NCBI RefSeq assembly: GCF_053078305.1
Contig: NZ_CP166879.1
Reading direction: 5' to 3' (one strand)
DNA length: 64,000 bases
Below the pieces are notes generated by a model. The model saw nothing but the letters and a program-made list of their open reading frames with translations, ran no database searches and was not told the DNA's origin. Below, piece after piece: positions 52,011-61,142 of this stretch; position 1 is the stretch's first letter, and every line of letters starts with the position of its first letter. The translations under genes were made by a program, and so were the position numbers.

Positions 52011-53549
52011 TTACGCTTTTGCCTTTGGCATCTGCGAAACCAGTGACAGACTGACGTCCATACCTTCCACCTGGAAATGTGGTACAGCATAGAGTTTCAC
52101 GCGGAAAAATCCCGGGTTGTCTTCGATGTCTTCCACCACCACTTTTCCGTCACGCAGCGGATGCGAGGCCTGCAGTTCATCACCCGGATCGGTCATCTCC
52201 GTCACCAGACCCCGGATCCAGTTATTCAGCTCCAGCTCAAGCAGACGGCGATCTTTGGTGGTACCGATATTTTCCCGCTGAATCATCTTCAGGTAATGCG
52301 CAATGCGGGACAGCAGGAAGATATAGGGAAGACGGGCATTAATACGGCTGTTCGCCGTTGCATCCGGCGTATCGTACAGTGCCGGTTTCTGGGTGGAGTT
52401 AGCGGAGAAGAAGCAGGCATAATCCCGGTTCTTGTAGTAAGAGAGCGGAATAAAGCCCAGATTAGCGAATTCAAACTCCCGAGTTTCCGGAATCATCACC
52501 TCTGACGGAATTTTGACCTGATTACCGGTTCCCAGATCATACAGATGGATCGGCAAATCCTGCACCGCACCACCGGCCTGAGGACCGCGGATCTGAACAC
52601 ACCAGCCGTTGGTGACAAAACTGCGCACCATATTGGCCGCAAAAGCAAAAGACGCATTTGTCCAGAGATACTTATGATGATCCGGACCTTTCACCTCTTC
52701 AACATAGTTAAAGCTGCGGACAGGTACGGTATCAGGACCATACGGCAGGCGTCCCAGAACACGTGGCATCACCAGACCAATATAGCGGGCATCATCCGTT
52801 TCACGGAAAGCGTTCCACTTGATGTACTCGGCACGCTCAAAGTGATTGCCAATATCCTTAATGGCGGCCACCTCTTCCATCGTATCCTTCCGGAAGAAAG
52901 CCGGGCCAACTGAACCAATAAATGGCATATGCGCGGACGCAGCCACCCGGGAAATATTTTTCAGCAGCGCCACATCCTGCGCAGACGCATCAAACTCCCA
53001 GGCAGAAATCAGGGCTGCAATGGGCTCACCACCCGGCGTATCGTACTCCGCCACATAAGTCTGCAGATAAAGACCACTCTGAATAATTTCCGGCGCATCC
53101 TCAAAATCCTGGCGCAGATCGTCTTTGGACAGATCCAGCAGCTCAATTTTCACATTACGGCGGAAGTCCGTTTTATCCACCAGAGACTTCACGCCCCGCC
53201 ACAGGGATTCCACTTTCTGAAATTCCGGATGATGAAGCACGGCATCCAGCTGACGGCTGATCTGATAATCAAGCTCTGCAATATGATGGTCAATCAGCGC
53301 CTTATCGAGTTTCTCCACCGGTGCTCCCGCTTTCGCCAGGCATTCCATAAACACCTGCATCCCTGCGGTCAGACGTTCATCTGCTGATGCCTCTGACATG
53401 GCCTGCGGATCCTGCCAGATATCCAGCGCACTCAGGGCTGATACCGGATTCAGATTAATTTTTTCAAACAGGGAAGCATATACGCTGTCGCCGGAATGCG
53501 TTTCAGAAACCGCATTTCCCGCCACATTATTTTCTTTTTGTACAGACAT
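52011..53549 (-). CDS. tssC: T6SS sheath large subunit TssC (VipB)
   Basis: About 512 aa from ATG at 53549 (alternative ATG at 53555; the ORF-track GTG at 53579 overlaps tssB). Confidence 0.9.
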   Translation of the reverse strand: MSVQKENNVAGNAVSETHSGDSVYASLFEKINLNPVSALSALDIWQDPQAMSEASADERLTAGMQVFMECLAKAGAPVEKLDKALIDHHIAELDYQISRQLDAVLHHPEFQKVESLWRGVKSLVDKTDFRRNVKIELLDLSKDDLRQDFEDAPEIIQSGLYLQTYVAEYDTPGGEPIAALISAWEFDASAQDVALLKNISRVAASAHMPFIGSVGPAFFRKDTMEEVAAIKDIGNHFERAEYIKWNAFRETDDARYIGLVMPRVLGRLPYGPDTVPVRSFNYVEEVKGPDHHKYLWTNASFAFAANMVRSFVTNGWCVQIRGPQAGGAVQDLPIHLYDLGTGNQVKIPSEVMIPETREFEFANLGFIPLSYYKNRDYACFFSANSTQKPALYDTPDATANSRINARLPYIFLLSRIAHYLKMIQRENIGTTKDRRLLELELNNWIRGLVTEMTDPGDELQASHPLRDGKVVVEDIEDNPGFFRVKLYAVPHFQVEGMDVSLSLVSQMPKAKA

Positions 53550-53575
53550 CAGCATGCTCTCTCTTAATCCGTTAA

Positions 53576-54073
53576 TCACACCTGTTCCGGCACCAGTGCA
53601 CTCAGTTCGTCACGTAAGGCCTGACTCAGTTCGGGATCCCGCAGAATTTTTTCCAGTTCTTTACGGAAAGTGGCGTTATCCAGCAGATTCGCCTTCAGAT
53701 CCCGCAGAAGGCTGCGCATGGCCAGCATGGCTTTAAGACGGGGAATTTGTCGGGCGATCTGCTCTGGCGTGAAGTCGTTCATATTGCGGAAAGTCAGGCT
53801 GATGCTTTCTTCAGAGCCATCACCGGCAAGCGTGTTCTCCACATTCAGGCGTACTGACGGCGAGATATCAGCCAGAACAGCATTAAAGTTATTTTTATTA
53901 ACATCCATTTTTATGCGCTCTGACAGCGGGCGCTCTTCCTGTCCGTTACTGAAATCACCGGCAACCAGCAGTTTGAGCGGAAGCTCCACTTTCTTCTGCC
54001 CACCACCTGTATGTAGGTCTAATTTCAGATTCACCCTTGCCTTCGGGATCTCATTCTGAAACGAACTGCTCAT
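53576..54073 (-). CDS. tssB: T6SS sheath small subunit TssB (VipA)
   Basis: 165 aa from ATG at 54073 with AGGAG RBS; the ORF-track start at 54097 has no RBS. Confidence 0.9.
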   Translation of the reverse strand: MSSSFQNEIPKARVNLKLDLHTGGGQKKVELPLKLLVAGDFSNGQEERPLSERIKMDVNKNNFNAVLADISPSVRLNVENTLAGDGSEESISLTFRNMNDFTPEQIARQIPRLKAMLAMRSLLRDLKANLLDNATFRKELEKILRDPELSQALRDELSALVPEQV

Positions 54074-54167
54074 GACGTTCTCCTGTGAAACCTGCATCCC
54101 AGGGAGCCCATCGCCACAGAAGGCCTCCCCTTGTGCACTGATTTAATTTCACCCATTATAGGACGAA

Positions 54168-54571: not shown

Positions 54572-54781
54572 ATGTCAGAAGATATTCCATTACCAAAAAT
54601 CAATCAGCGATACAGAGACGATCATGGCGCGCTTGTCACCGTGACCAGTGTTGAGGAAACCCGGGTGGTGTTTATGCGGGACGGCTATCCGCATCCCTGC
54701 ATGCGGCCGATGTACAACTTCCTGGGAAAATTCAAACCCGAACCCCGGAAAGAACCCCCTGCCGGCAATCACACTGCCTGA
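54572..54781 (+). CDS. Small hypothetical protein (69 aa)
   Basis: ORF only; no motif recognised. Confidence 0.4.
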   Translation: MSEDIPLPKINQRYRDDHGALVTVTSVEETRVVFMRDGYPHPCMRPMYNFLGKFKPEPRKEPPAGNHTA

Positions 54782-54800
54782 TGGCAGCATAATCCACTTA

Positions 54801-55034
54801 TTAATTCTCATCCCCGGAGACAAGCCCAGAAAACCACTCCGGGTGTTCACTGTATGCCGTGTTCAGCGCATCCCAGGAAACGTTGATATAAAAGCTGTCC
54901 TGCAATTTGCGGGTAACAATTTCTGCCACCCGGTTACGGTTATCCGCCTGTCCGGCATAACCTCTCTCTGCCAGCCACTCATTCAGTTCATGTTCCGGAG
55001 ACAGATTGATAATATCGTAATCGGACCTTGCCAT
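54801..55034 (-). CDS. Small hypothetical protein (77 aa)
   Basis: ORF only; acidic, no motif recognised. Confidence 0.4.
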   Translation of the reverse strand: MARSDYDIINLSPEHELNEWLAERGYAGQADNRNRVAEIVTRKLQDSFYINVSWDALNTAYSEHPEWFSGLVSGDEN

Positions 55035-55122
55035 TCCCGTTTCCTTAGCACATGTTTTCAGGCTCGGGGATAAAGAATGTCGTACTGCTGCTGCCAGAGC
55101 AATATTCCCCCTGATGGTCGAA

Positions 55123-55782
55123 TCAGAGATAGTAGGCCGGTACTTTGCGGGTTGTTCCCGTCAGATTATCATGCACCTCCGCGGTCGTTGTCACCACCGG
55201 CATTCCGCTCTTTCTCAACCTCAGGACATCAGCCGCAATACGCTGACTGCCGAACCAGAACAGGCCGTCCAGTGCAGTCACCAGCAACCCCGCCTCCAGC
55301 GCATGCTTCAGCCGTTCACGGGGCGCTTTCACTTCCCGGGCAATCTGCTGGTATGGCGATGATGTGTTATCATTCCCAATCACCCGGCGAATACGATGAG
55401 ACAGATGATACCGGTATGTATCCGGCACACCGGAAAGGCTGGCCTTCAGGCTGTACACGCAGCCAAAGCGTTTATCGTTGAACACCACATTTTTCTGGCT
55501 GATATCCCATTCTTCACGCAGCGCGGCAATCAGTTGTGGTGTCCGGGTAAGCAACAAGCGAAAAGGCAGTTCAAAACTGGTGACGTAATCCACATTCAGC
55601 AGTGCAATACGCAGCCGTTCTTCCGGCCCGGCCTCTGTCTGCCGGCACTCCTCCAGAACATCCTGCCACTGCTGGTGAAGGCGTGGAAGTTCATTCAGTT
55701 CAGTAAAACTGTATTTATCCGCAAGATAGTCAATTCGTGTACGCATACTGAAAAGAATTCCGTATAAAGATTCAGCTGGCAA
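55123..55782 (-). CDS. Hypothetical protein
   Basis: ORF-track start is TTG; the first ATG (MRTRIDYL...) is at about 55746; no motif recognised. Confidence 0.4.
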   Translation of the reverse strand: MPAESLYGILFSMRTRIDYLADKYSFTELNELPRLHQQWQDVLEECRQTEAGPEERLRIALLNVDYVTSFELPFRLLLTRTPQLIAALREEWDISQKNVVFNDKRFGCVYSLKASLSGVPDTYRYHLSHRIRRVIGNDNTSSPYQQIAREVKAPRERLKHALEAGLLVTALDGLFWFGSQRIAADVLRLRKSGMPVVTTTAEVHDNLTGTTRKVPAYYL

Positions 55783-55834
55783 AACTTTATCAGTCTGTAA
55801 AAACTAACGGAAGAGTCGATATTTCTCCCGTCCA

Positions 55835-56344
55835 TCACCGGATGATTGTTGCAATACCCCGTGGCATCAGAGACTGAACAGCCGTTTTTAACGCCACGTA
55901 TTGCCCTGATGAACCAGGCCGGGCAACCCGAAAACATCTTTCCACCCGGCATTGTCCGCCAGCACTTATCACCGACCAGGTCTGTTGCAGTAAATCCACC
56001 AGTTGCGCACATTCTTCATCAGCCATGACGCCGACTCGCGGATGGCAAATACTCGTCTGGCTGAGCAGCAACAGACATCGTATCTGTGCTCCTTCATGTT
56101 GTTCCCGCAACCAGCGTAATACCACCGGCGCTGATGGGCTGACCGTGTGATTATGCTCCGTAATACGTTCGTGTACCCGTCGGTGAAAGGAACTACAAAA
56201 TGTCTGAATCTGTTGACCATAGATTCCTTCTGCCGAATAGAGCGTGAAGTGAAATGCCAACAGATTTGGCCAGTGGTCCACCGCCTGCTGAACAAAACGC
56301 CGGATTTCCCCCGGCTCTGAAATTAAGGCTTCGGTTATTTGCAC
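55835..56344 (-). CDS. Hypothetical protein (169 aa)
   Basis: ORF only; no motif recognised. Confidence 0.4.
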   Translation of the reverse strand: MQITEALISEPGEIRRFVQQAVDHWPNLLAFHFTLYSAEGIYGQQIQTFCSSFHRRVHERITEHNHTVSPSAPVVLRWLREQHEGAQIRCLLLLSQTSICHPRVGVMADEECAQLVDLLQQTWSVISAGGQCRVERCFRVARPGSSGQYVALKTAVQSLMPRGIATIIR

Positions 56345-56789
56345 GAAATGTTCCTTTTCAACCCCTGTTGAATTTTGTCAAGCCGGTGCAGACACAGTAA
56401 AGCGCGCATCAACACCTGAAAGGTACGATACAAACACAAGTTACAAACAATAAGAACGGAAGGACAATTAATCAGTGAGGAATAATAACTAAATTAACCA
56501 AAAGAATGTTACTGACAATACTACCAATACTTAAATAGCAATATATTAATTAATGTAAGAACAGATGCCCGGTAAGACATATACACAATACATCCACAAA
56601 CACACTCTTTTCATTAAATCAATCACCTGATTAAACCATGAAAGTGTGATGTAAGTCAAAATTACTGACACTATCAATTGATAATGATTATCTCTATCAT
56701 TATCGTGAAATTCGAGAATGAAAGGAGAAGTAGTCATTATAAGCCTTTTATAAATCGTCATCATCATAGTAAAGTAGAACACTTTTTAT

Positions 56790-57260
56790 ATGAGTTACTA
56801 TATGAAAATATACTGGACAAGAAAACGCATTCCTGAACTTTCAGCACTTCCACCTTCATTAAGAAAGAAAAATTTTACTGACGCATATAATGCAGCATCT
56901 TCTCATATCGAATACTGGATAGGTGCTGGCGTCTCATTTATCTCGATGATGATTTTATCCAGAGTATATGACTTTCTTTTACCCGCCCAAGATACTTTCC
57001 CGGGTGATATCATCAGAAGTTTATGTGTTGTGTGTCCATCCATATTAATCTGGTTTCAGTTTTCGGTATATGTCATGAGGAAATATTACAGACATATTCT
57101 GGTGCGAGGAAAAGAAACCGAAACCATTTCAGAAAGGTTGATACGTGAGGCTGATACACGAGAATATGAACTATGGCGTCCGGTCCGTCGCTTTTTCTCC
57201 ATTATTTTTCTCATTATTCTATTAGTTTGCATTCATTCACTGATAACAACTATAAAATAA
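56790..57260 (+). CDS. Integral membrane protein of unknown function in the microcin locus (156 aa)
   Basis: Predicted TM segments (VSFISMMILSRVY, LCVVCPSILIWFQFSVYV, FFSIIFLIILLVCIHSLI); AT-rich. Confidence 0.5.
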   Translation: MSYYMKIYWTRKRIPELSALPPSLRKKNFTDAYNAASSHIEYWIGAGVSFISMMILSRVYDFLLPAQDTFPGDIIRSLCVVCPSILIWFQFSVYVMRKYYRHILVRGKETETISERLIREADTREYELWRPVRRFFSIIFLIILLVCIHSLITTIK

Positions 57261-57357
57261 AAGTTATGGCTGTTCTGATACAGGAAAATAAACGTTCATT
57301 CTATGGTTACCTCTTCCTATTATAGAAGAATTTTAAACGACAAGTAAGGGAATATAA

Positions 57358-58044
57358 ATGGAAATAACAAAAAATAAAAATGCAACTATAAAAAAACAGT
57401 CATCAGTCGGCTGCTTTTCAATGTTTACCTTATCATTTTCTATTACCTTTATTCCTGTATTCCTTACAAACAGGCAGGAACTTATATCCAGGGGACTTCT
57501 TGTTCCAGCATTATTTCTTGCTGAATTTCTAATTCTTGTTCCACTGTATTTTATTTTCTTCCGAAAAAGAGAAGGATTAGGAAGAGGCTCTTTTCGACTG
57601 GATGTTTTTTTTACTCTTTTCTCTTTAATAATGATTATTCAGTTATTTGTCCCTTATCTGCTGGCAGTGAGGAAAACGGAAGAATGGATGATCTCGCAAA
57701 TGTCTTTTTCCGGGGCCATTTTATGGATTAATATATTTTCTTCCGTACTTCTTGTTCCTGTATATGAAGAGATTGTATTTCGAGGGTGTCTTTTTAACTC
57801 TTTTAAATTCTGGTTTAATGACAATATTTACATCTCTGCTATTGTAACATCAGTCATATTTTCTGCATTACATCTACAATATACTGACTTTCGTACATTT
57901 TTGATGCTCTTTCTGATATCGTTAGTTCTTATCAGTGCAAAAATAAAGTCGAATGGCCTGTTAATGCCCATATTACTTCACATGGCGATGAATGCAGTCA
58001 TAACAGGAATACAATATACGTTACAATATCACATAACAGTCTGA
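57358..58044 (+). CDS. CPBP-family (CAAX protease / Abi) intramembrane metalloprotease, MceF/McmM-like microcin accessory protein
   Basis: 228 aa; the three CPBP motifs are present (YEEIVFRG, FSALHLQY, LHMAMNAV); polytopic. Confidence 0.8.
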   Translation: MEITKNKNATIKKQSSVGCFSMFTLSFSITFIPVFLTNRQELISRGLLVPALFLAEFLILVPLYFIFFRKREGLGRGSFRLDVFFTLFSLIMIIQLFVPYLLAVRKTEEWMISQMSFSGAILWINIFSSVLLVPVYEEIVFRGCLFNSFKFWFNDNIYISAIVTSVIFSALHLQYTDFRTFLMLFLISLVLISAKIKSNGLLMPILLHMAMNAVITGIQYTLQYHITV

Positions 58045-58489
58045 AATTGTTATTATGAGATATCTATAACACCTGAAGTTGGAAAAAGAAGCAAATAATT
58101 CCTTATAAGGGATCGTTTACTAATATATTTAGATAATCTCATATTTGTTTATGATATACATCTGATTAAGATATAATGGATTATAAATTACTCAAAGATG
58201 AACAAATATCTTCGCCTTTTCTCGTAGAAAGAGACTTGAAACTTATAACACATCTATATAAATGTGATTTAAATCACGGTTTGCAGTAAAAGCAATTGGT
58301 ATAATTCATTGGTATTCCTATTATTTTATCTATTGCGCGAACTATTTTACAACAATAAAAAAGATATACAAACAGCAAGAAGTAAAAATATTCGGATAAA
58401 TAAAAACTTTTGCTACCTTGGTTTCTATAGTCTTTATTTCTAAGTTTTTCATAAGCACTCAAAGACTCATGTATAGGGATGGTTTAATA

Positions 58490-58654
58490 ATGAAACTATT
58501 TTTTTATTTCTCGTTGTTCTTTATAATACAACTTATAAATTCAGACTTAGACACATTAACCCTTTATCTTTTCATAAAGAAAATAATTCTTTCGTTACTT
58601 GCGAGTGTACTGTTTTTATTTGTTTTATCTTTCTTTAATAAAAAGAGGAAATAA
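58490..58654 (+). CDS. Candidate microcin immunity protein (54-aa two-TM peptide)
   Basis: MKLFFYFSLFFIIQLINSDLDTLTLYLFIKKIILSLLASVLFLFVLSFFNKKRK; stop is 1 nt before the microcin precursor ATG; the ORF-track TTG extension was rejected. Confidence 0.55.
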   Translation: MKLFFYFSLFFIIQLINSDLDTLTLYLFIKKIILSLLASVLFLFVLSFFNKKRK

Positions 58655-58655
58655 C

Positions 58656-58979
58656 ATGAGAAATATAACAACCGATGAACTTGCTTTAATACATGGTGCA
58701 GGATTAGATAAAGATGCATCCGTTGCAATAGGTACTGCGGCTGGTAGTTTTTTAGGTAAAGCAACAAAAATCCCTGGTGCGGATATAGCAGGAAGTGCAA
58801 TTGGAGGATATATTGGAGGAGTTATTGCTGATGGTTCAAATAGGACAATAACAATACCATCAAACGGTATTAACTATAATCCGGGTATAGGACTTGGAAG
58901 TTTTAATCCAAACTACAATGGAGGTTTATTAAACTCAGGATTTAACTCATCAACATCCTCTTCTAGTAGTGGAAGTTGA
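58656..58979 (+). CDS. Class IIb (siderophore-type) microcin precursor with double-glycine-type leader
   Basis: 107 aa from ATG at 58656 (RBS AGAGGA, 6-nt spacer); leader MRNITTDELALIHGA-G; Gly/Ala/Ser-rich, Cys-free core; C-terminus NSSTSSSSSGS; export and modification genes adjacent. Confidence 0.8.
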   Translation: MRNITTDELALIHGAGLDKDASVAIGTAAGSFLGKATKIPGADIAGSAIGGYIGGVIADGSNRTITIPSNGINYNPGIGLGSFNPNYNGGLLNSGFNSSTSSSSSGS

Positions 58980-58988
58980 TTAATTTCT

Positions 58989-59025
58989 AAAGCAGCATAG
59001 CTTATTATGCAGCAATGCTGCTTTT
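58989..59025 (+). terminator. Hairpin terminator between the convergent microcin precursor and exporter genes
   Basis: AAAGCAGCAT...ATGCTGCTTT 10-bp stem ending in a T-tract. Confidence 0.45.
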
Positions 59026-59039
59026 AGTGATATATTATC

Positions 59040-61142
59040 CTAATTTGTAATTCTAAAAATCCGATCAACTGTTCTTAAAGTTGTCTCTCTATGTGCAATA
59101 ATCACCCGGGTGATATTCATCTTTTTTATAGCAGCATTCACGAAACGTTCACTTTCTGTATCAAGAGAACTTGTAGCCTCATCCATAAATAATATTCCAG
59201 GTTTCCGGTATAAAGCTCGGGCAATGAATATACGCTGTTTTTGACCGCCGGAAAGACCTTCCCCCAGTTCACCTATTAACGTTTCATACCCCATTGGCAT
59301 TTTCATTATCACATCATGAATATGACTTGCTTTGGCACATTCTGTCATCCATTCGTCGTCTGTTTCTTCTGCAAACCCACAGATATTTTCACGAATTGAT
59401 CCTGAAAATAGCCGGTCGTCCTGCATAACACAGGCTATCATACGGTGATAATTATTTATTCCAAGTTGACGTATATCCGTGCCATTAACCAGTACTTTTC
59501 CACTATCTGGTTCAAACAGTCCACATAATACTTTCATTAATGTGGTTTTTCCGGCACCGGAGGCACCAGTTATAGCCACACTTTCTCCCGGAGCCACAGA
59601 CAAATTCAGACCACTGAATACCTGTGCTGACTGGCTGTCATACCGGTAGCTTAAATCAGTGGTTTCCAGTGAAACCGGGCTCATGTCAGCAACGATTTCA
59701 ATTTCCGGTTTCTTTTCTTCCTTTTCATGTAGTGCAATATCTGCAATGCGCTCATTATGCAGACTCATTATTCTCAGTTGAAGAAGAAAACTGGTCAGCG
59801 AAGCAACCCGATCCGAAAACTGCCCACGAAAAGAACCAAATGCCACAAACATCCCTATTGTCATCTGATTATCGATCACAAGGCTTGCACCCAGCCATAA
59901 AATCGCCACCTGATCACAGGCGGCAACAAAAGTATTTATCCCCCCGAAGAGCAAATCCATCCTGGTTAACTTAATACCTGAATTGATCGCATCTATTTTC
60001 AGGTTAAGCCAGTGTGTTCCCCGAATCCCAGCCATACCCTGGATTTTTACCGTGGCAATACCATACAGGCTTTCCATAAAATAGGAGCTGGCCCGGGCCC
60101 CCCTGACAAGAGTTTCTTCCGATATTTGCCGGTAATAGCCGTATGTCACCAGACGAATAAGAACGTAAACCATGGTAAAACCGAGCACTATCCAGGTAAG
60201 ATATCCTCCATATAACAGCATCATCACAAAAACACCCACAACCATAATACTGTCCATGATTGCCCCAACAACACAGGTAGTAAAGGTGGCCCTCAAAGTG
60301 TCAAGGGAGCCAAAACGCGACTGGATATCACCTAATTTACGGCGTTCAAAAAACGCCAGCGGCAGTCTGAGAAGATGGTTAAACAGACCCGACTGCCACT
60401 GTATATTGATGAGCGTGCTCATAACCAGTGAGGACCATGCACGCAGCATACTCACCGCGGCCCTGAGCAATATAAAGAACATCAGGCCAGCAGAAATAAG
60501 CGTCAGCAGCCCTCTGTCCCCCGCCGGAATCGCATGATCCATAACCAGCTGAGTTCCCACCGGCATTACCAGATTGATTGCTTCAATTACAACTGACAGA
60601 CAGAAAATTTTCGCCAGTGTTCTTTTAATACCGTAAATACTGTTAATCAGTGAACGGAGACTTATGCGGGTCTGCTGGGTTTCCGCCAGGAATTCACTTC
60701 CGGGCCAGACCTCAAGTGCAATGCCCGTAAAATACCGGCTCATTTCCTCCCGACCGAGATATCTTCTGCCTCTGGCCGGATCATGCAGTACATAACGGTT
60801 ACGCTTTACGCTGACCAGCACGACGAAGTGACTGAAATCCCAGTGGAGAATACACGGCATTTTGAGGGCACCAAGTTCATCCAGCTCCAGTGAAAGAGCC
60901 CGGGTGACCATCCCCAGCTGCTCCGCTATTCCATTGATTCCTGCAAGGTTTGCTCCACGGGCCGAGAGATTAAACTTCCGGCGAAGAGATATCAGGTCAA
61001 TATTCTTACCAAAATGACCGCATATCATTGCCAGGCAGGCCAGTCCACATTCAGCGGTCTCCGTCTGATGAATAACCGGAACACGACGTCGCCAGCGCAT
61101 ATCAAGCTGATTTATAATTTGTCTGAAATTCCCGTTAGTCAT
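59040..61142 (-). CDS. Microcin ABC exporter with catalytic C39 peptidase domain (CvaB/MchF-like)
   Basis: About 700 aa from ATG at 61142 ([11 protein letters not shown]...); C39 active-site region [16 protein letters not shown] retains Cys; Walker [10 protein letters not shown], signature LSGGQKQR; closely resembles CvaB from memory. Confidence 0.9.

What the first reader, a model, noticed from the sequence alone, without database searches (positions are those of the whole stretch)
56790..58044. Two membrane genes upstream of the microcin pair: CPBP protease and an unknown 156-aa membrane protein
CPBP (Abi) proteins are recurrent in bacteriocin loci as immunity or maturation factors, and all three catalytic motifs are intact here. 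The upstream 156-aa membrane protein has no recognisable motif and could be a second immunity determinant, for example for a microcin gene no longer present.
Basis: partly seen in the sequence, partly recalled or inferred. Interest (0 to 1): 0.45.

Follow-up and report, generated by a model that had tools for sequence, protein, structure and literature searches.

The report
Known microcin-island genes mcmT and mcmM
The two membrane genes are real but already named: mcmT (a small 3-helix membrane protein reported to protect against several microcins) and mcmM (a membrane protease). Together they form the conserved edge of the E. coli siderophore-microcin island, and their exact roles are still poorly tested.

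Summary
Both ORFs exist as described. The ORF at 57358-58044 encodes a 228-aa, 7-segment CPBP/Rce1-like protease with all three catalytic motifs. It is 96% identical to the protease that sits next to mcmA in E. coli ATCC 25922, so it is McmM, the E. coli counterpart of Klebsiella MceF. The ORF at 56790-57260 (the start conserved in homologues is ATG 56802, giving 152 aa) is McmT. A 2019 review, citing a 2009 thesis, describes McmT as a 156-aa, 3-TM protein from Nissle 1917. [quoted passage not shown] The "microcin pair" downstream is the published microcin Ec W (EcWI/EcWA), which replaces the MccM cassette. New here:
- A strong Fur-box-like site (17 of 19 positions) overlaps a promoter-like site about 100 nt upstream of mcmT.
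- mcmT is under purifying selection and is present in about 19% of complete E. coli genomes. It is often an orphan, as in O157:H7 (ECs_1374).
- McmT belongs to a wider unnamed family of small membrane proteins, and most of its members lie outside microcin loci.
- McmM/MceF-type proteases flank class IIb microcin exporters in Salmonella and Klebsiella without McmT.

Novelty is low.

The parts
56678..56706 (+). Promoter-like site (TTGATA-17 nt-TATCGT), proposed promoter of mcmT(-mcmM)
   Evidence: Consensus scan, 9 of 12 matches. The number of such sites in the region is no higher than in shuffled sequence, so it is only suggestive. It is identical in ATCC 25922, O157:H7 and strain 04-00955.
56680..56704 (.). 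Fur-box-like site. 56680-56698 matches the consensus GATAATGATAATCATTATC at 17 of 19 positions, and an overlapping second copy at 56686-56704 matches at 15 of 19.
   Evidence: It is the only site with 3 or fewer mismatches in the 64-kb window, against 0.07 expected. It lies 104 nt upstream of ATG 56802. No such site is found upstream of McmT homologues outside the E. coli island, or upstream of the Salmonella and Klebsiella CPBP genes. In the MccE492 cluster, boxes with 68-74% identity bound Fur in vivo (PMC6071977).
56802..57260 (+). mcmT: a 152-aa (156 aa from the alternative ATG at 56790) inner-membrane protein with three TM helices, predicted N-in/C-out
   Evidence: ORF. 96% identical to the gene upstream of mcmM in ATCC 25922 and equivalent to ECs_1374 in O157:H7 Sakai. 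Literature description of McmT. dN/dS 0.09-0.43. Topology. AlphaFold model with pLDDT 83, made of three long helices plus an N-terminal amphipathic helix.
57346..57351 (+). Shine-Dalgarno-like AAGGGA, 6 nt upstream of the mcmM ATG
   Evidence: Read directly from the sequence. No terminator-like site was found in the 97-nt mcmT-mcmM spacer.
57358..58044 (+). mcmM: a 228-aa CPBP (Rce1-like) intramembrane glutamic protease, counterpart of Klebsiella MceF
   Evidence: Pfam PF02517, E 2.4e-17. Motifs and 7 hydrophobic segments. 96% identical to the CPBP next to mcmA in ATCC 25922. 62-63% identical to the Klebsiella CPBP beside the microcin exporter. The Ec W paper places Ec W "between mchF and mcmM".
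58018..59054 (.). Swapped microcin cassette with no homology to the MccM-type island. It begins inside the last 27 nt of mcmM and ends 15 nt inside the 3' end of mchF.
   Evidence: blastn of the window against the ATCC 25922 locus: homology covers 55219-58017 and 59055-60500 only.
58490..58654 (+). ecWI: the 54-aa immunity peptide of microcin Ec W
   Evidence: Same length (165 nt) and same 1-nt spacing to the microcin gene as published (PMC12999681). Sequence.
58656..58979 (+). ecWA: the 107-aa precursor of class IIb microcin Ec W (leader ending in GA, serine-rich C-terminus)
   Evidence: ORF and translation. It matches the published description: 107 aa, at the MccM position, in reverse orientation. 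Databases call it a hypothetical protein.
58989..59024 (.). Hairpin between the convergent ecWA and mchF genes, a likely bidirectional terminator
   Evidence: Inverted repeat I10, 14-nt arms, 93% complementary. Terminator-like hit at 59009-59021.
59040..61160 (-). mchF: the C39-peptidase ABC exporter. It is followed on the minus strand by mchE (61135-62409), mchD (62562-63014) and the 3' part of mchC (63040 to the window end).
   Evidence: ORFs. RefSeq annotation of the 99.8%-identical locus in strain 04-00955. HlyC domain in MchD.

Best explanation
The two genes are mcmT and mcmM. They form the conserved left border of the E. coli MccH47/MccM-type siderophore-microcin (class IIb) genomic island. 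In this island variant the MccM cassette has been replaced by the Ec W cassette.

Shown here:
- Gene identity, the intact protease motifs, the membrane topology and purifying selection.
- The pair is kept together in every island variant examined.

Inferred:
- mcmT and mcmM are transcribed together from a Fur-repressed promoter. They would therefore be switched on under iron limitation, together with microcin maturation and with the catecholate receptors through which microcins enter.
- McmT is a small N-in/C-out three-helix inner-membrane protein. It acts as an auxiliary, non-cognate protection factor against TonB-dependent microcins. This function rests only on a thesis cited in a review.
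- McmM is a 7-TM glutamic intramembrane protease. It is an accessory, non-essential factor that acts proteolytically at the inner membrane on a microcin or an immunity-related peptide, and so modulates immunity rather than providing it.

The cognate immunity to Ec W is supplied by EcWI, not by these two genes.
For: Identity:
- McmM is 96% identical and McmT 96% identical to the pair next to mcmA in ATCC 25922.
- The Ec W paper places that cassette between mchF and mcmM.
- The review describes McmT as a 156-aa, 3-TM protein from Nissle 1917, with a homologue in O157:H7 next to mchA. That arrangement is what O157 FRIK2069 and Sakai show, with ECs_1374 next to ECs_1370.

Protease:
- Pfam match and all three motifs are present.
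- Orthologues at 51-63% identity lie beside class IIb microcin genes and the C39 exporter in Salmonella and Klebsiella.
- dN/dS between the Salmonella and Klebsiella copies is 0.23.

Iron control:
- A unique 17-of-19 Fur box overlaps a promoter-like site 104 nt upstream of mcmT.
- Weaker boxes were functional in the MccE492 cluster.
- There is no terminator-like site in the 97-nt spacer between the two genes, and mcmM has its own ribosome-binding site.

Real gene: dN/dS is 0.09-0.43, and mcmT is present in 1027 of 5426 complete E. coli genomes.
Against: - The only functional data for McmT come from an unpublished thesis that used a multicopy plasmid. Cross-resistance to four microcins with different targets could be an overexpression artefact.
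- Ec W is reported active against EDL933, which carries mcmT. Chromosomal mcmT is therefore not a general shield.
- McmT homologues in Salmonella, Kosakonia and others lie outside microcin loci and lack the Fur box.
- McmM orthologues in Salmonella and Klebsiella have no McmT next to them.
- The review states that no evidence was found for McmM in MccM/MccH47 immunity. Other papers label McmM as an "export" protein without testing it.
- The promoter-like site is no better than chance expectation.
- Co-transcription and Fur binding are untested.
Confidence: 0.6

Rival explanations
1. McmT is a general-purpose small membrane protein that was carried into the island by chance. The reported resistance would be an overexpression artefact: for example, membrane or proton-motive-force perturbation could lower TonB-dependent uptake of any microcin. 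On this reading McmT has no dedicated microcin role.
For: - Relatives occur as lone genes in ordinary chromosomal neighbourhoods: P0129 and P0139 and Kosakonia, between an Lhr-type helicase gene and an inositol-monophosphatase-like gene.
- Others sit directly after P4-type integrases with no microcin genes nearby.
- A wider family of roughly 100-aa, 2-TM proteins shares the N-terminal MKIYWTxKSIPEL motif.
- Protection was reported against four microcins with different inner-membrane targets.
- EDL933 carries mcmT but is inhibited by Ec W.
Against: - The E. coli copy alone has acquired a strong Fur-box-like site.
- mcmT stays linked to mcmM in all E. coli island variants, even in decayed remnants.
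- It is under purifying selection among E. coli alleles, with dN/dS 0.21-0.43.
Confidence: 0.22
2. McmT and McmM work as an obligate pair. McmT would be the substrate, adaptor or regulator of the McmM protease, and the two together would form a two-component immunity or maturation device.
For: - The genes are adjacent on the same strand with a 97-nt spacer and no terminator-like site.
- They are kept together in the EcW-type island, the MccM-type island and decayed remnants.
- The cytoplasmic N-terminus and loop of McmT are its most conserved parts, which suggests a protein-protein interface.
Against: - McmM/MceF orthologues in Salmonella and Klebsiella have no McmT neighbour.
- McmT homologues elsewhere have no CPBP neighbour.
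- About 600 E. coli genomes keep an intact mcmT although mcmM is cut by IS1.
- McmT alone on a plasmid was reported to be sufficient for resistance.
Confidence: 0.1
3. McmM (with or without McmT) is part of the microcin export or maturation machinery, as some papers label it.
For: - Massip et al. group mcmM with mchE and mchF under "export".
- The CPBP gene is always adjacent to the microcin cassette and the C39 exporter.
Against: - No experiment is cited for that label.
- The review reports only an immunity-related effect for MceF, and none for McmM.
- Leader cleavage and export are already accounted for by the C39-ABC/MFP pair, MchF and MchE (established knowledge of class II microcins).
- From my own knowledge, not checked here: heterologous MccH47 systems work without mcmM.
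Confidence: 0.08

Closest known systems
McmM of E. coli CA46/CA58/Nissle 1917 (MccM/MccH47 island) and MceF of Klebsiella pneumoniae RYC492 (MccE492 cluster)
   Same: - 228 aa, 7 TM segments, CPBP motifs.
- 96% identical to the ATCC 25922 copy next to mcmA.
- 62-63% identical to the Klebsiella CPBP beside the exporter.
- Same position at the edge of the island, next to the variable microcin cassette.
   Different: The last 8-9 codons differ because the left breakpoint of the Ec W cassette lies inside the 3' end of mcmM. The neighbouring microcin is Ec W rather than MccM.
McmT of E. coli Nissle 1917 (Bravo-Vazquez thesis 2009; Baquero et al. 2019, PMC6795089)
   Same: - 156-aa ORF with 3 TM segments, immediately upstream of mcmM.
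- A homologue in O157:H7 lies next to the mchA glycosyltransferase, exactly as the review states.
   Different: - The Nissle sequence itself was not retrieved. ATCC 25922, which has the same type of island next to F1C fimbrial genes, served as a proxy (96% identity).
- The conserved start codon gives 152 aa, not 156.
CPBP/Abi bacteriocin immunity proteins (McsI of microcin S; PlnI, SkkI and similar proteins of Gram-positive bacteria)
   Same: Same protease superfamily, with the same three motifs, encoded beside a bacteriocin gene. McsI is cited as the MccS immunity protein.
   Different: - For McmM no immunity role was found.
- Cognate immunity here is provided by a separate small peptide, EcWI.
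- Sequence relatedness to McsI was not tested.
Cognate class IIb immunity peptides (MchI, McmI, MceB, EcWI, MchS3)
   Same: Small inner-membrane proteins encoded in the same island. McmT is reported to protect against MccH47 and MccM.
   Different: - McmT is larger (152 aa against 54-95 aa for most of them).
- It is not adjacent to, or translationally coupled with, a microcin gene.
- It has no detectable similarity to MchS3.
- It has homologues outside microcin loci.

Membership tests
CPBP / Rce1-like intramembrane glutamic proteases (Pfam PF02517) | Profile match above the curated threshold | tested here: met
   63.4 bits against a cut-off of 22.4, E 2.4e-17, residues 122-214. Sub-threshold matches to several NCBIfam CPBP equivalogs.
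CPBP / Rce1-like intramembrane glutamic proteases (Pfam PF02517) | The three conserved motifs EExxxR, FxxxH and HxxxN/D, on transmembrane helices | tested here: met
   E137-E138-IVF-R142, F168-SAL-H172 and H208-MAM-N212, with 7 hydrophobic segments. The motifs are conserved in the Klebsiella orthologue.
CPBP / Rce1-like intramembrane glutamic proteases (Pfam PF02517) | Proteolytic activity | not testable with these tools
   This needs biochemistry or catalytic-site mutants.
McmM/MceF orthologous group of class IIb microcin islands | High identity to the CPBP gene adjacent to mcmA/mcmI in an MccM island | tested here: met
   212 of 220 aligned residues (96%) are identical to WP_000426105.1 of ATCC 25922, which lies next to mcmA and mchF.
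McmM/MceF orthologous group of class IIb microcin islands | Position at the island edge, next to the microcin cassette and the 3' end of the C39-ABC exporter gene | tested here: met
   Seen in the window, strain 04-00955, Salmonella L009-L011 and Klebsiella L012-L014. The literature places Ec W "between mchF and mcmM".
McmT (Baquero et al. 2019 / Bravo-Vazquez 2009) | A protein of about 156 aa with 3 transmembrane segments, encoded in the MccH47/MccM island | tested here: met
   156-aa ORF (152 aa from the conserved ATG), three hydrophobic segments, upstream of mcmM in the ATCC 25922 MccM/H47 island.
McmT (Baquero et al. 2019 / Bravo-Vazquez 2009) | A homologue in E. coli O157:H7 in a region that also holds the mchA glycosyltransferase | tested here: met
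   FRIK2069: a 152-aa gene, IS1-cut CPBP, cut esterase gene and an intact glycosyltransferase gene. Sakai: ECs_1374 and ECs_1370.
McmT (Baquero et al. 2019 / Bravo-Vazquez 2009) | Sequence identity to the cloned Nissle 1917 gene | not tested
   The Nissle record was not retrieved. ATCC 25922, which carries the same type of island, was used as a proxy.
McmT (Baquero et al. 2019 / Bravo-Vazquez 2009) | Confers resistance to MccH47 and MccM | not testable with these tools
   Literature claim only.
Cognate class IIb microcin immunity peptides | A small TM peptide encoded directly beside its microcin gene and co-expressed with it | tested here: not met
   mcmT ends 1229 nt upstream of ecWI, with mcmM in between. 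EcWI (58490-58654) fills the cognate role. There is no similarity to MchS3.
Pfam DUF6170 (considered for McmT) | Profile match above the threshold | tested here: not met
   McmT itself has no DUF6170 hit. Only two distant relatives gave sub-threshold hits, E 0.06-0.17 against a cut-off of 27 bits.
Fur-regulated promoters | A match to the 19-bp Fur box that overlaps promoter elements | tested here: met
   17 of 19 positions match at 56680-56698, overlapping the -35 hexamer and spacer of a promoter-like site. It is unique in the window.
Fur-regulated promoters | Fur binding and iron-dependent expression | not testable with these tools
   This needs a Fur titration assay, a reporter fusion or a gel-shift assay.

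The most novel reading that the evidence does not exclude
McmT would be a Fur-controlled, broad-spectrum resistance factor recruited from a widespread, uncharacterised family of small membrane proteins. It would act on a step shared by catecholate-receptor/TonB-dependent microcins, such as energy transduction or inner-membrane insertion, and not on any single toxin. It survives as an intact orphan gene in roughly 600 of 5426 complete E. coli genomes, including O157:H7, O145 and O111. It could therefore shape which pathogens resist probiotic strains such as Nissle 1917.
Probability: 0.15. Interest if true: 0.55.

Novelty: already known. Interest (0 to 1): 0.25.

Why it matters
Siderophore-microcins are being developed as narrow-spectrum antimicrobials and as the active principle of probiotics such as Nissle 1917. 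An accessory gene that gives cross-protection against several of them, and that survives as an orphan in about a fifth of complete E. coli genomes including major Shiga-toxin-producing lineages, would bear on the resistance of target pathogens.

The function of the CPBP protease kept at the edge of every class IIb island in E. coli, Salmonella and Klebsiella is still open. The literature variously calls it an export protein, an "activity protein" or a negative regulator of immunity.

This analysis adds three testable leads: a probable Fur-controlled mcmT-mcmM operon, the family and genomic distribution of McmT, and the exact breakpoints of the microcin cassette swap. As a discovery, however, the finding is not new.

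Tried and rejected
- **Family searches for McmT.** Pfam, NCBIfam, PADLOC and PHROGs gave nothing usable.
- **McmT related to the MccI47 immunity protein MchS3?** Rejected: BLASTP E 0.12, hhalign probability 0.35%.
- **McmT equivalent to MceE of the MccE492 cluster?** Rejected from the literature: MceE resembles MchS4, not a 3-TM protein.
- **Apparent divergent homologues P0020, P0022 and P0023.** These turned out to be frameshifted E. coli copies.
- **McmT on true plasmids or with colicin/microcin plasmids?** Not found. The "plasmid" hits are mislabelled chromosomal fragments.
- **Conserved neighbours of distant McmT relatives.** None emerged. The genome-contig scan returned only 3 loci because its search patterns were narrow.
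- **Literature on ECs1374 and on the Ec W peptide sequence.** No hits.
- **Rfam scan of the whole window.** No RNA family matched.
- **Repeats in the region.** Only chance-level matches, apart from the terminator hairpin.
Full report
**Observation.** They lie in a 27-37% GC stretch that begins near 56250, after 47-58% GC DNA carrying type VI secretion genes.

The 228-aa product is a CPBP/Rce1-like protease (Pfam PF02517, E 2.4e-17, 63.4 bits against a cut-off of 22.4). It has seven hydrophobic segments and all three motifs: E137-E138-xxx-R142, F168-xxx-H172 and H208-xxx-N212.

The 156-aa product has no Pfam, NCBIfam, PADLOC or useful PHROG match. It has three hydrophobic segments. Lys+Arg counts are 7 in the N-terminus, 0 in loop 1 and 11 in loop 2, which predicts an N-in/C-out topology. 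RefSeq annotation and all homologues begin at MK(I/L)YW. The likely start is therefore ATG 56802, giving 152 aa.

The gene is real. dN/dS is 0.09-0.26 against homologues at 53-64% identity, and 0.21-0.43 among E. coli alleles.

**What the locus is.** The 2.6-kb region is 99.8% identical to a chromosomal locus in E. coli strain 04-00955 and others. The annotated order in that strain is:
- type VI secretion genes;
- four small island genes (a DUF4222 protein, a 77-aa protein, an ECs1377-family protein and a 169-aa protein);
- the 152-aa hypothetical protein, the CPBP protease and a 107-aa hypothetical protein;
- mchF, the mchE-like HlyD-family gene, the mchD-like acyltransferase gene and the mchC-like gene;
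- mchB, mchI and mchS3;
- an esterase gene and a glycosyltransferase gene.

This is the MccH47-type siderophore-microcin island.

In E. coli ATCC 25922 the same two genes (each protein 96% identical) lie next to mcmA and mchF. The protease is therefore McmM.

The downstream "microcin pair" is the published class IIb microcin Ec W. The paper describes a 107-aa precursor in reverse orientation "between mchF and mcmM". It is preceded by a 165-nt immunity gene, with one nucleotide between the two ORFs (PMC12999681). That is exactly 58490-58654 and 58656-58979 here.

A blastn comparison against ATCC 25922 shows homology over 55219-58017 and again from 59055. The segment 58018-59054 is therefore a swapped cassette. 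Its breakpoints lie in the last 27 nt of mcmM and the last 15 nt of mchF. This explains why the McmM C-terminus differs.

**The 156-aa gene is already named.** Baquero et al. [quoted passage not shown] According to the review:
- It was cloned from Nissle 1917.
- A homologue exists in O157:H7, in a region that also holds mchA.

I see that arrangement in O157:H7 FRIK2069. The 152-aa gene is intact, the CPBP gene is cut after 84 nt by IS1, the esterase gene is cut, and the glycosyltransferase gene is intact. In Sakai the corresponding genes are ECs_1374 and ECs_1370.

The same review says that McmM (228 aa, 7 TM) resembles MceF. It adds that no evidence was found that McmM is needed for MccM or MccH47 immunity, and that MceF negatively regulates MccE492 immunity. 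Other papers label McmM as an "export" protein or a "microcin M activity protein" without testing it.

**Distribution.**
- mcmT covers at least 80% of the query in 1027 of 5426 complete E. coli genomes.
- mcmM does so in 418 genomes.
- The whole region including Ec W does so in 116 genomes.
- About 600 genomes therefore carry an orphan mcmT. Most belong to the IS1-deleted type seen in O157, O145 and O111.
- Decayed mcmT-mcmM remnants also occur at a second site, near the hsd genes.

**The McmM family.** Orthologues at 51-63% identity are found in Salmonella and Klebsiella, with more distant relatives (31-53% identity) in Citrobacter, Serratia, Hafnia and Pantoea. Where I looked, the gene lies beside a class IIb microcin/immunity pair and the C39-ABC/MFP/MchD/MchC block, and there is no McmT:
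- In Salmonella L009 the neighbours are a 96-aa serine-rich microcin and a 55-aa immunity ORF.
- In Klebsiella L013 the neighbours are a frameshifted MccM-like gene and an McmI-like ORF. This fits the literature on MccM remnants in strain RYC492.

The protease is thus a conserved fixture next to a variable cassette slot. dN/dS between the Salmonella and Klebsiella copies is 0.23.

**The McmT family.** A word-indexed search found only E. coli alleles, a 61-64% identity group and Salmonella proteins at 51-58% identity. An exhaustive profile search found 66 proteins (E up to 0.001). They include 141-155-aa three-helix relatives and many two-helix proteins of about 100-112 aa. All share the N-terminal MKIYWTxKSIPELxxLP motif and the IWxQFxIYxMRKxYRHIL end of helix 2.

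The genomic contexts are not microcin loci:
- In Salmonella and in the 64% identity group, the gene follows a P4-type integrase and is followed by small two-helix ORFs.
- In Kosakonia it lies between an Lhr-type helicase gene and an inositol-monophosphatase-like gene.
- Other relatives are lone genes among metabolic genes.

No fold relative was found for McmT, although the model built from 22 sequences is confident (pLDDT 83). McmT is unrelated to MchS3.

**Regulation.** The only site in the 64-kb window that matches the Fur consensus within 3 mismatches lies at 56680-56698 (17 of 19 positions; 0.07 expected by chance). An overlapping second copy lies at 56686-56704. The site overlaps a promoter-like TTGATA-17-TATCGT element, 104 nt upstream of the mcmT ATG. 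It is identical in three other E. coli lineages, although the whole upstream region is 99% conserved, so this adds little.

The site is absent upstream of McmT homologues elsewhere, and upstream of the Salmonella and Klebsiella proteases. In the MccE492 cluster, boxes with only 68-74% identity to the consensus bound Fur in vivo (PMC6071977).

There is no terminator-like site in the 97-nt spacer before mcmM, which has its own AAGGGA ribosome-binding site. I infer an iron-repressed mcmT-mcmM operon. This has not been tested.

**Mechanism.** Gene identity, motifs, topology, selection and linkage are shown. The rest is inferred, or taken from the literature.
- McmT is most likely an auxiliary, non-cognate protection factor against TonB-dependent microcins.
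- McmM is most likely an accessory intramembrane protease that modulates immunity or membrane-inserted peptides.
- Cognate Ec W immunity comes from EcWI.

Several points count against a strong protective role for McmT:
- The data come from a multicopy plasmid in an unpublished thesis.
- The reported protection spans microcins with different targets.
- Homologues lie outside microcin loci.
- Ec W is reported active on EDL933, which carries mcmT.

**Verdict.** Both genes are already known by name, so novelty is low. The small additions are the Fur box, the family and genome distribution of McmT, and the cassette breakpoints.

Noticed in passing
window 58490-58979: The downstream microcin pair is the recently published class IIb microcin Ec W (EcWI 54 aa, EcWA 107 aa). 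Public databases still label it a hypothetical protein. The full region occurs in 116 of 5426 complete E. coli genomes, whereas the paper reported 29 genomes with exact matches.
   Followed up: yes
window 58018-59054, compared with L002 9661-10401: The exchange of the MccM cassette for the Ec W cassette has sharp breakpoints, inside the last 27 nt of mcmM and the last 15 nt of mchF. The two convergent gene ends appear to act as recombination anchors for swapping microcin cassettes.
   Followed up: partly
window 54572-56344: A four-gene module lies between the type VI secretion genes and mcmT: a DUF4222 protein (+ strand), then on the minus strand a 77-aa protein, a 219-aa ECs1377-family/HTH_39-like protein and a 169-aa protein. 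It travels with mcmT in O157:H7 and, in part, in ATCC 25922. Its function is unknown, and it has no PADLOC hit.
   Followed up: partly
window 52011-54097: The type VI secretion sheath genes tssC and tssB directly abut the microcin island. GC content falls from about 56% to about 30% between roughly 54000 and 58000.
   Followed up: no
L004 8462-8686; L020 940-1337: In Salmonella and a related group, the McmT homologue sits directly after a P4-type integrase. It is followed by conserved small two-helix ORFs of 60-74 aa that look like orphan immunity peptides. In Salmonella a remnant of an integrase C-terminus follows.
   Followed up: partly
L009 7967-8478: In Salmonella enterica, a 96-aa serine-rich class IIb microcin-like ORF and a 55-aa membrane ORF lie between the McmM-like protease gene and the mchF-like exporter gene, on a plasmid-like or island segment that also carries ccdAB and an integrase gene.
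   Followed up: no
L013 685-1222: In Klebsiella pneumoniae, a frameshifted MccM-like gene (MRKLSENEIKQVSGGDGNDGQAELIAIG...) and an McmI-like ORF lie between the MceF-like protease gene and the exporter gene.
   Followed up: partly
L027 5607-6674; L028 5941-6297: Some E. coli carry decayed remnants at a second chromosomal site: truncated mcmT plus mcmM in L027, and only a truncated mcmM in L028. The site lies next to type I restriction genes and a beta-helix/MFS cluster, and has no microcin genes.
   Followed up: partly
P0020, P0022, P0023: Three apparent distant McmT homologues are frameshifted translations of E. coli-like mcmT. One of them comes from an assembly (GCA_002230785.1) with very sparse gene calls, which suggests contamination or a low-quality assembly. 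Separately, an E. coli mcmT contig is filed under a Collinsella MAG (L024).
   Followed up: no
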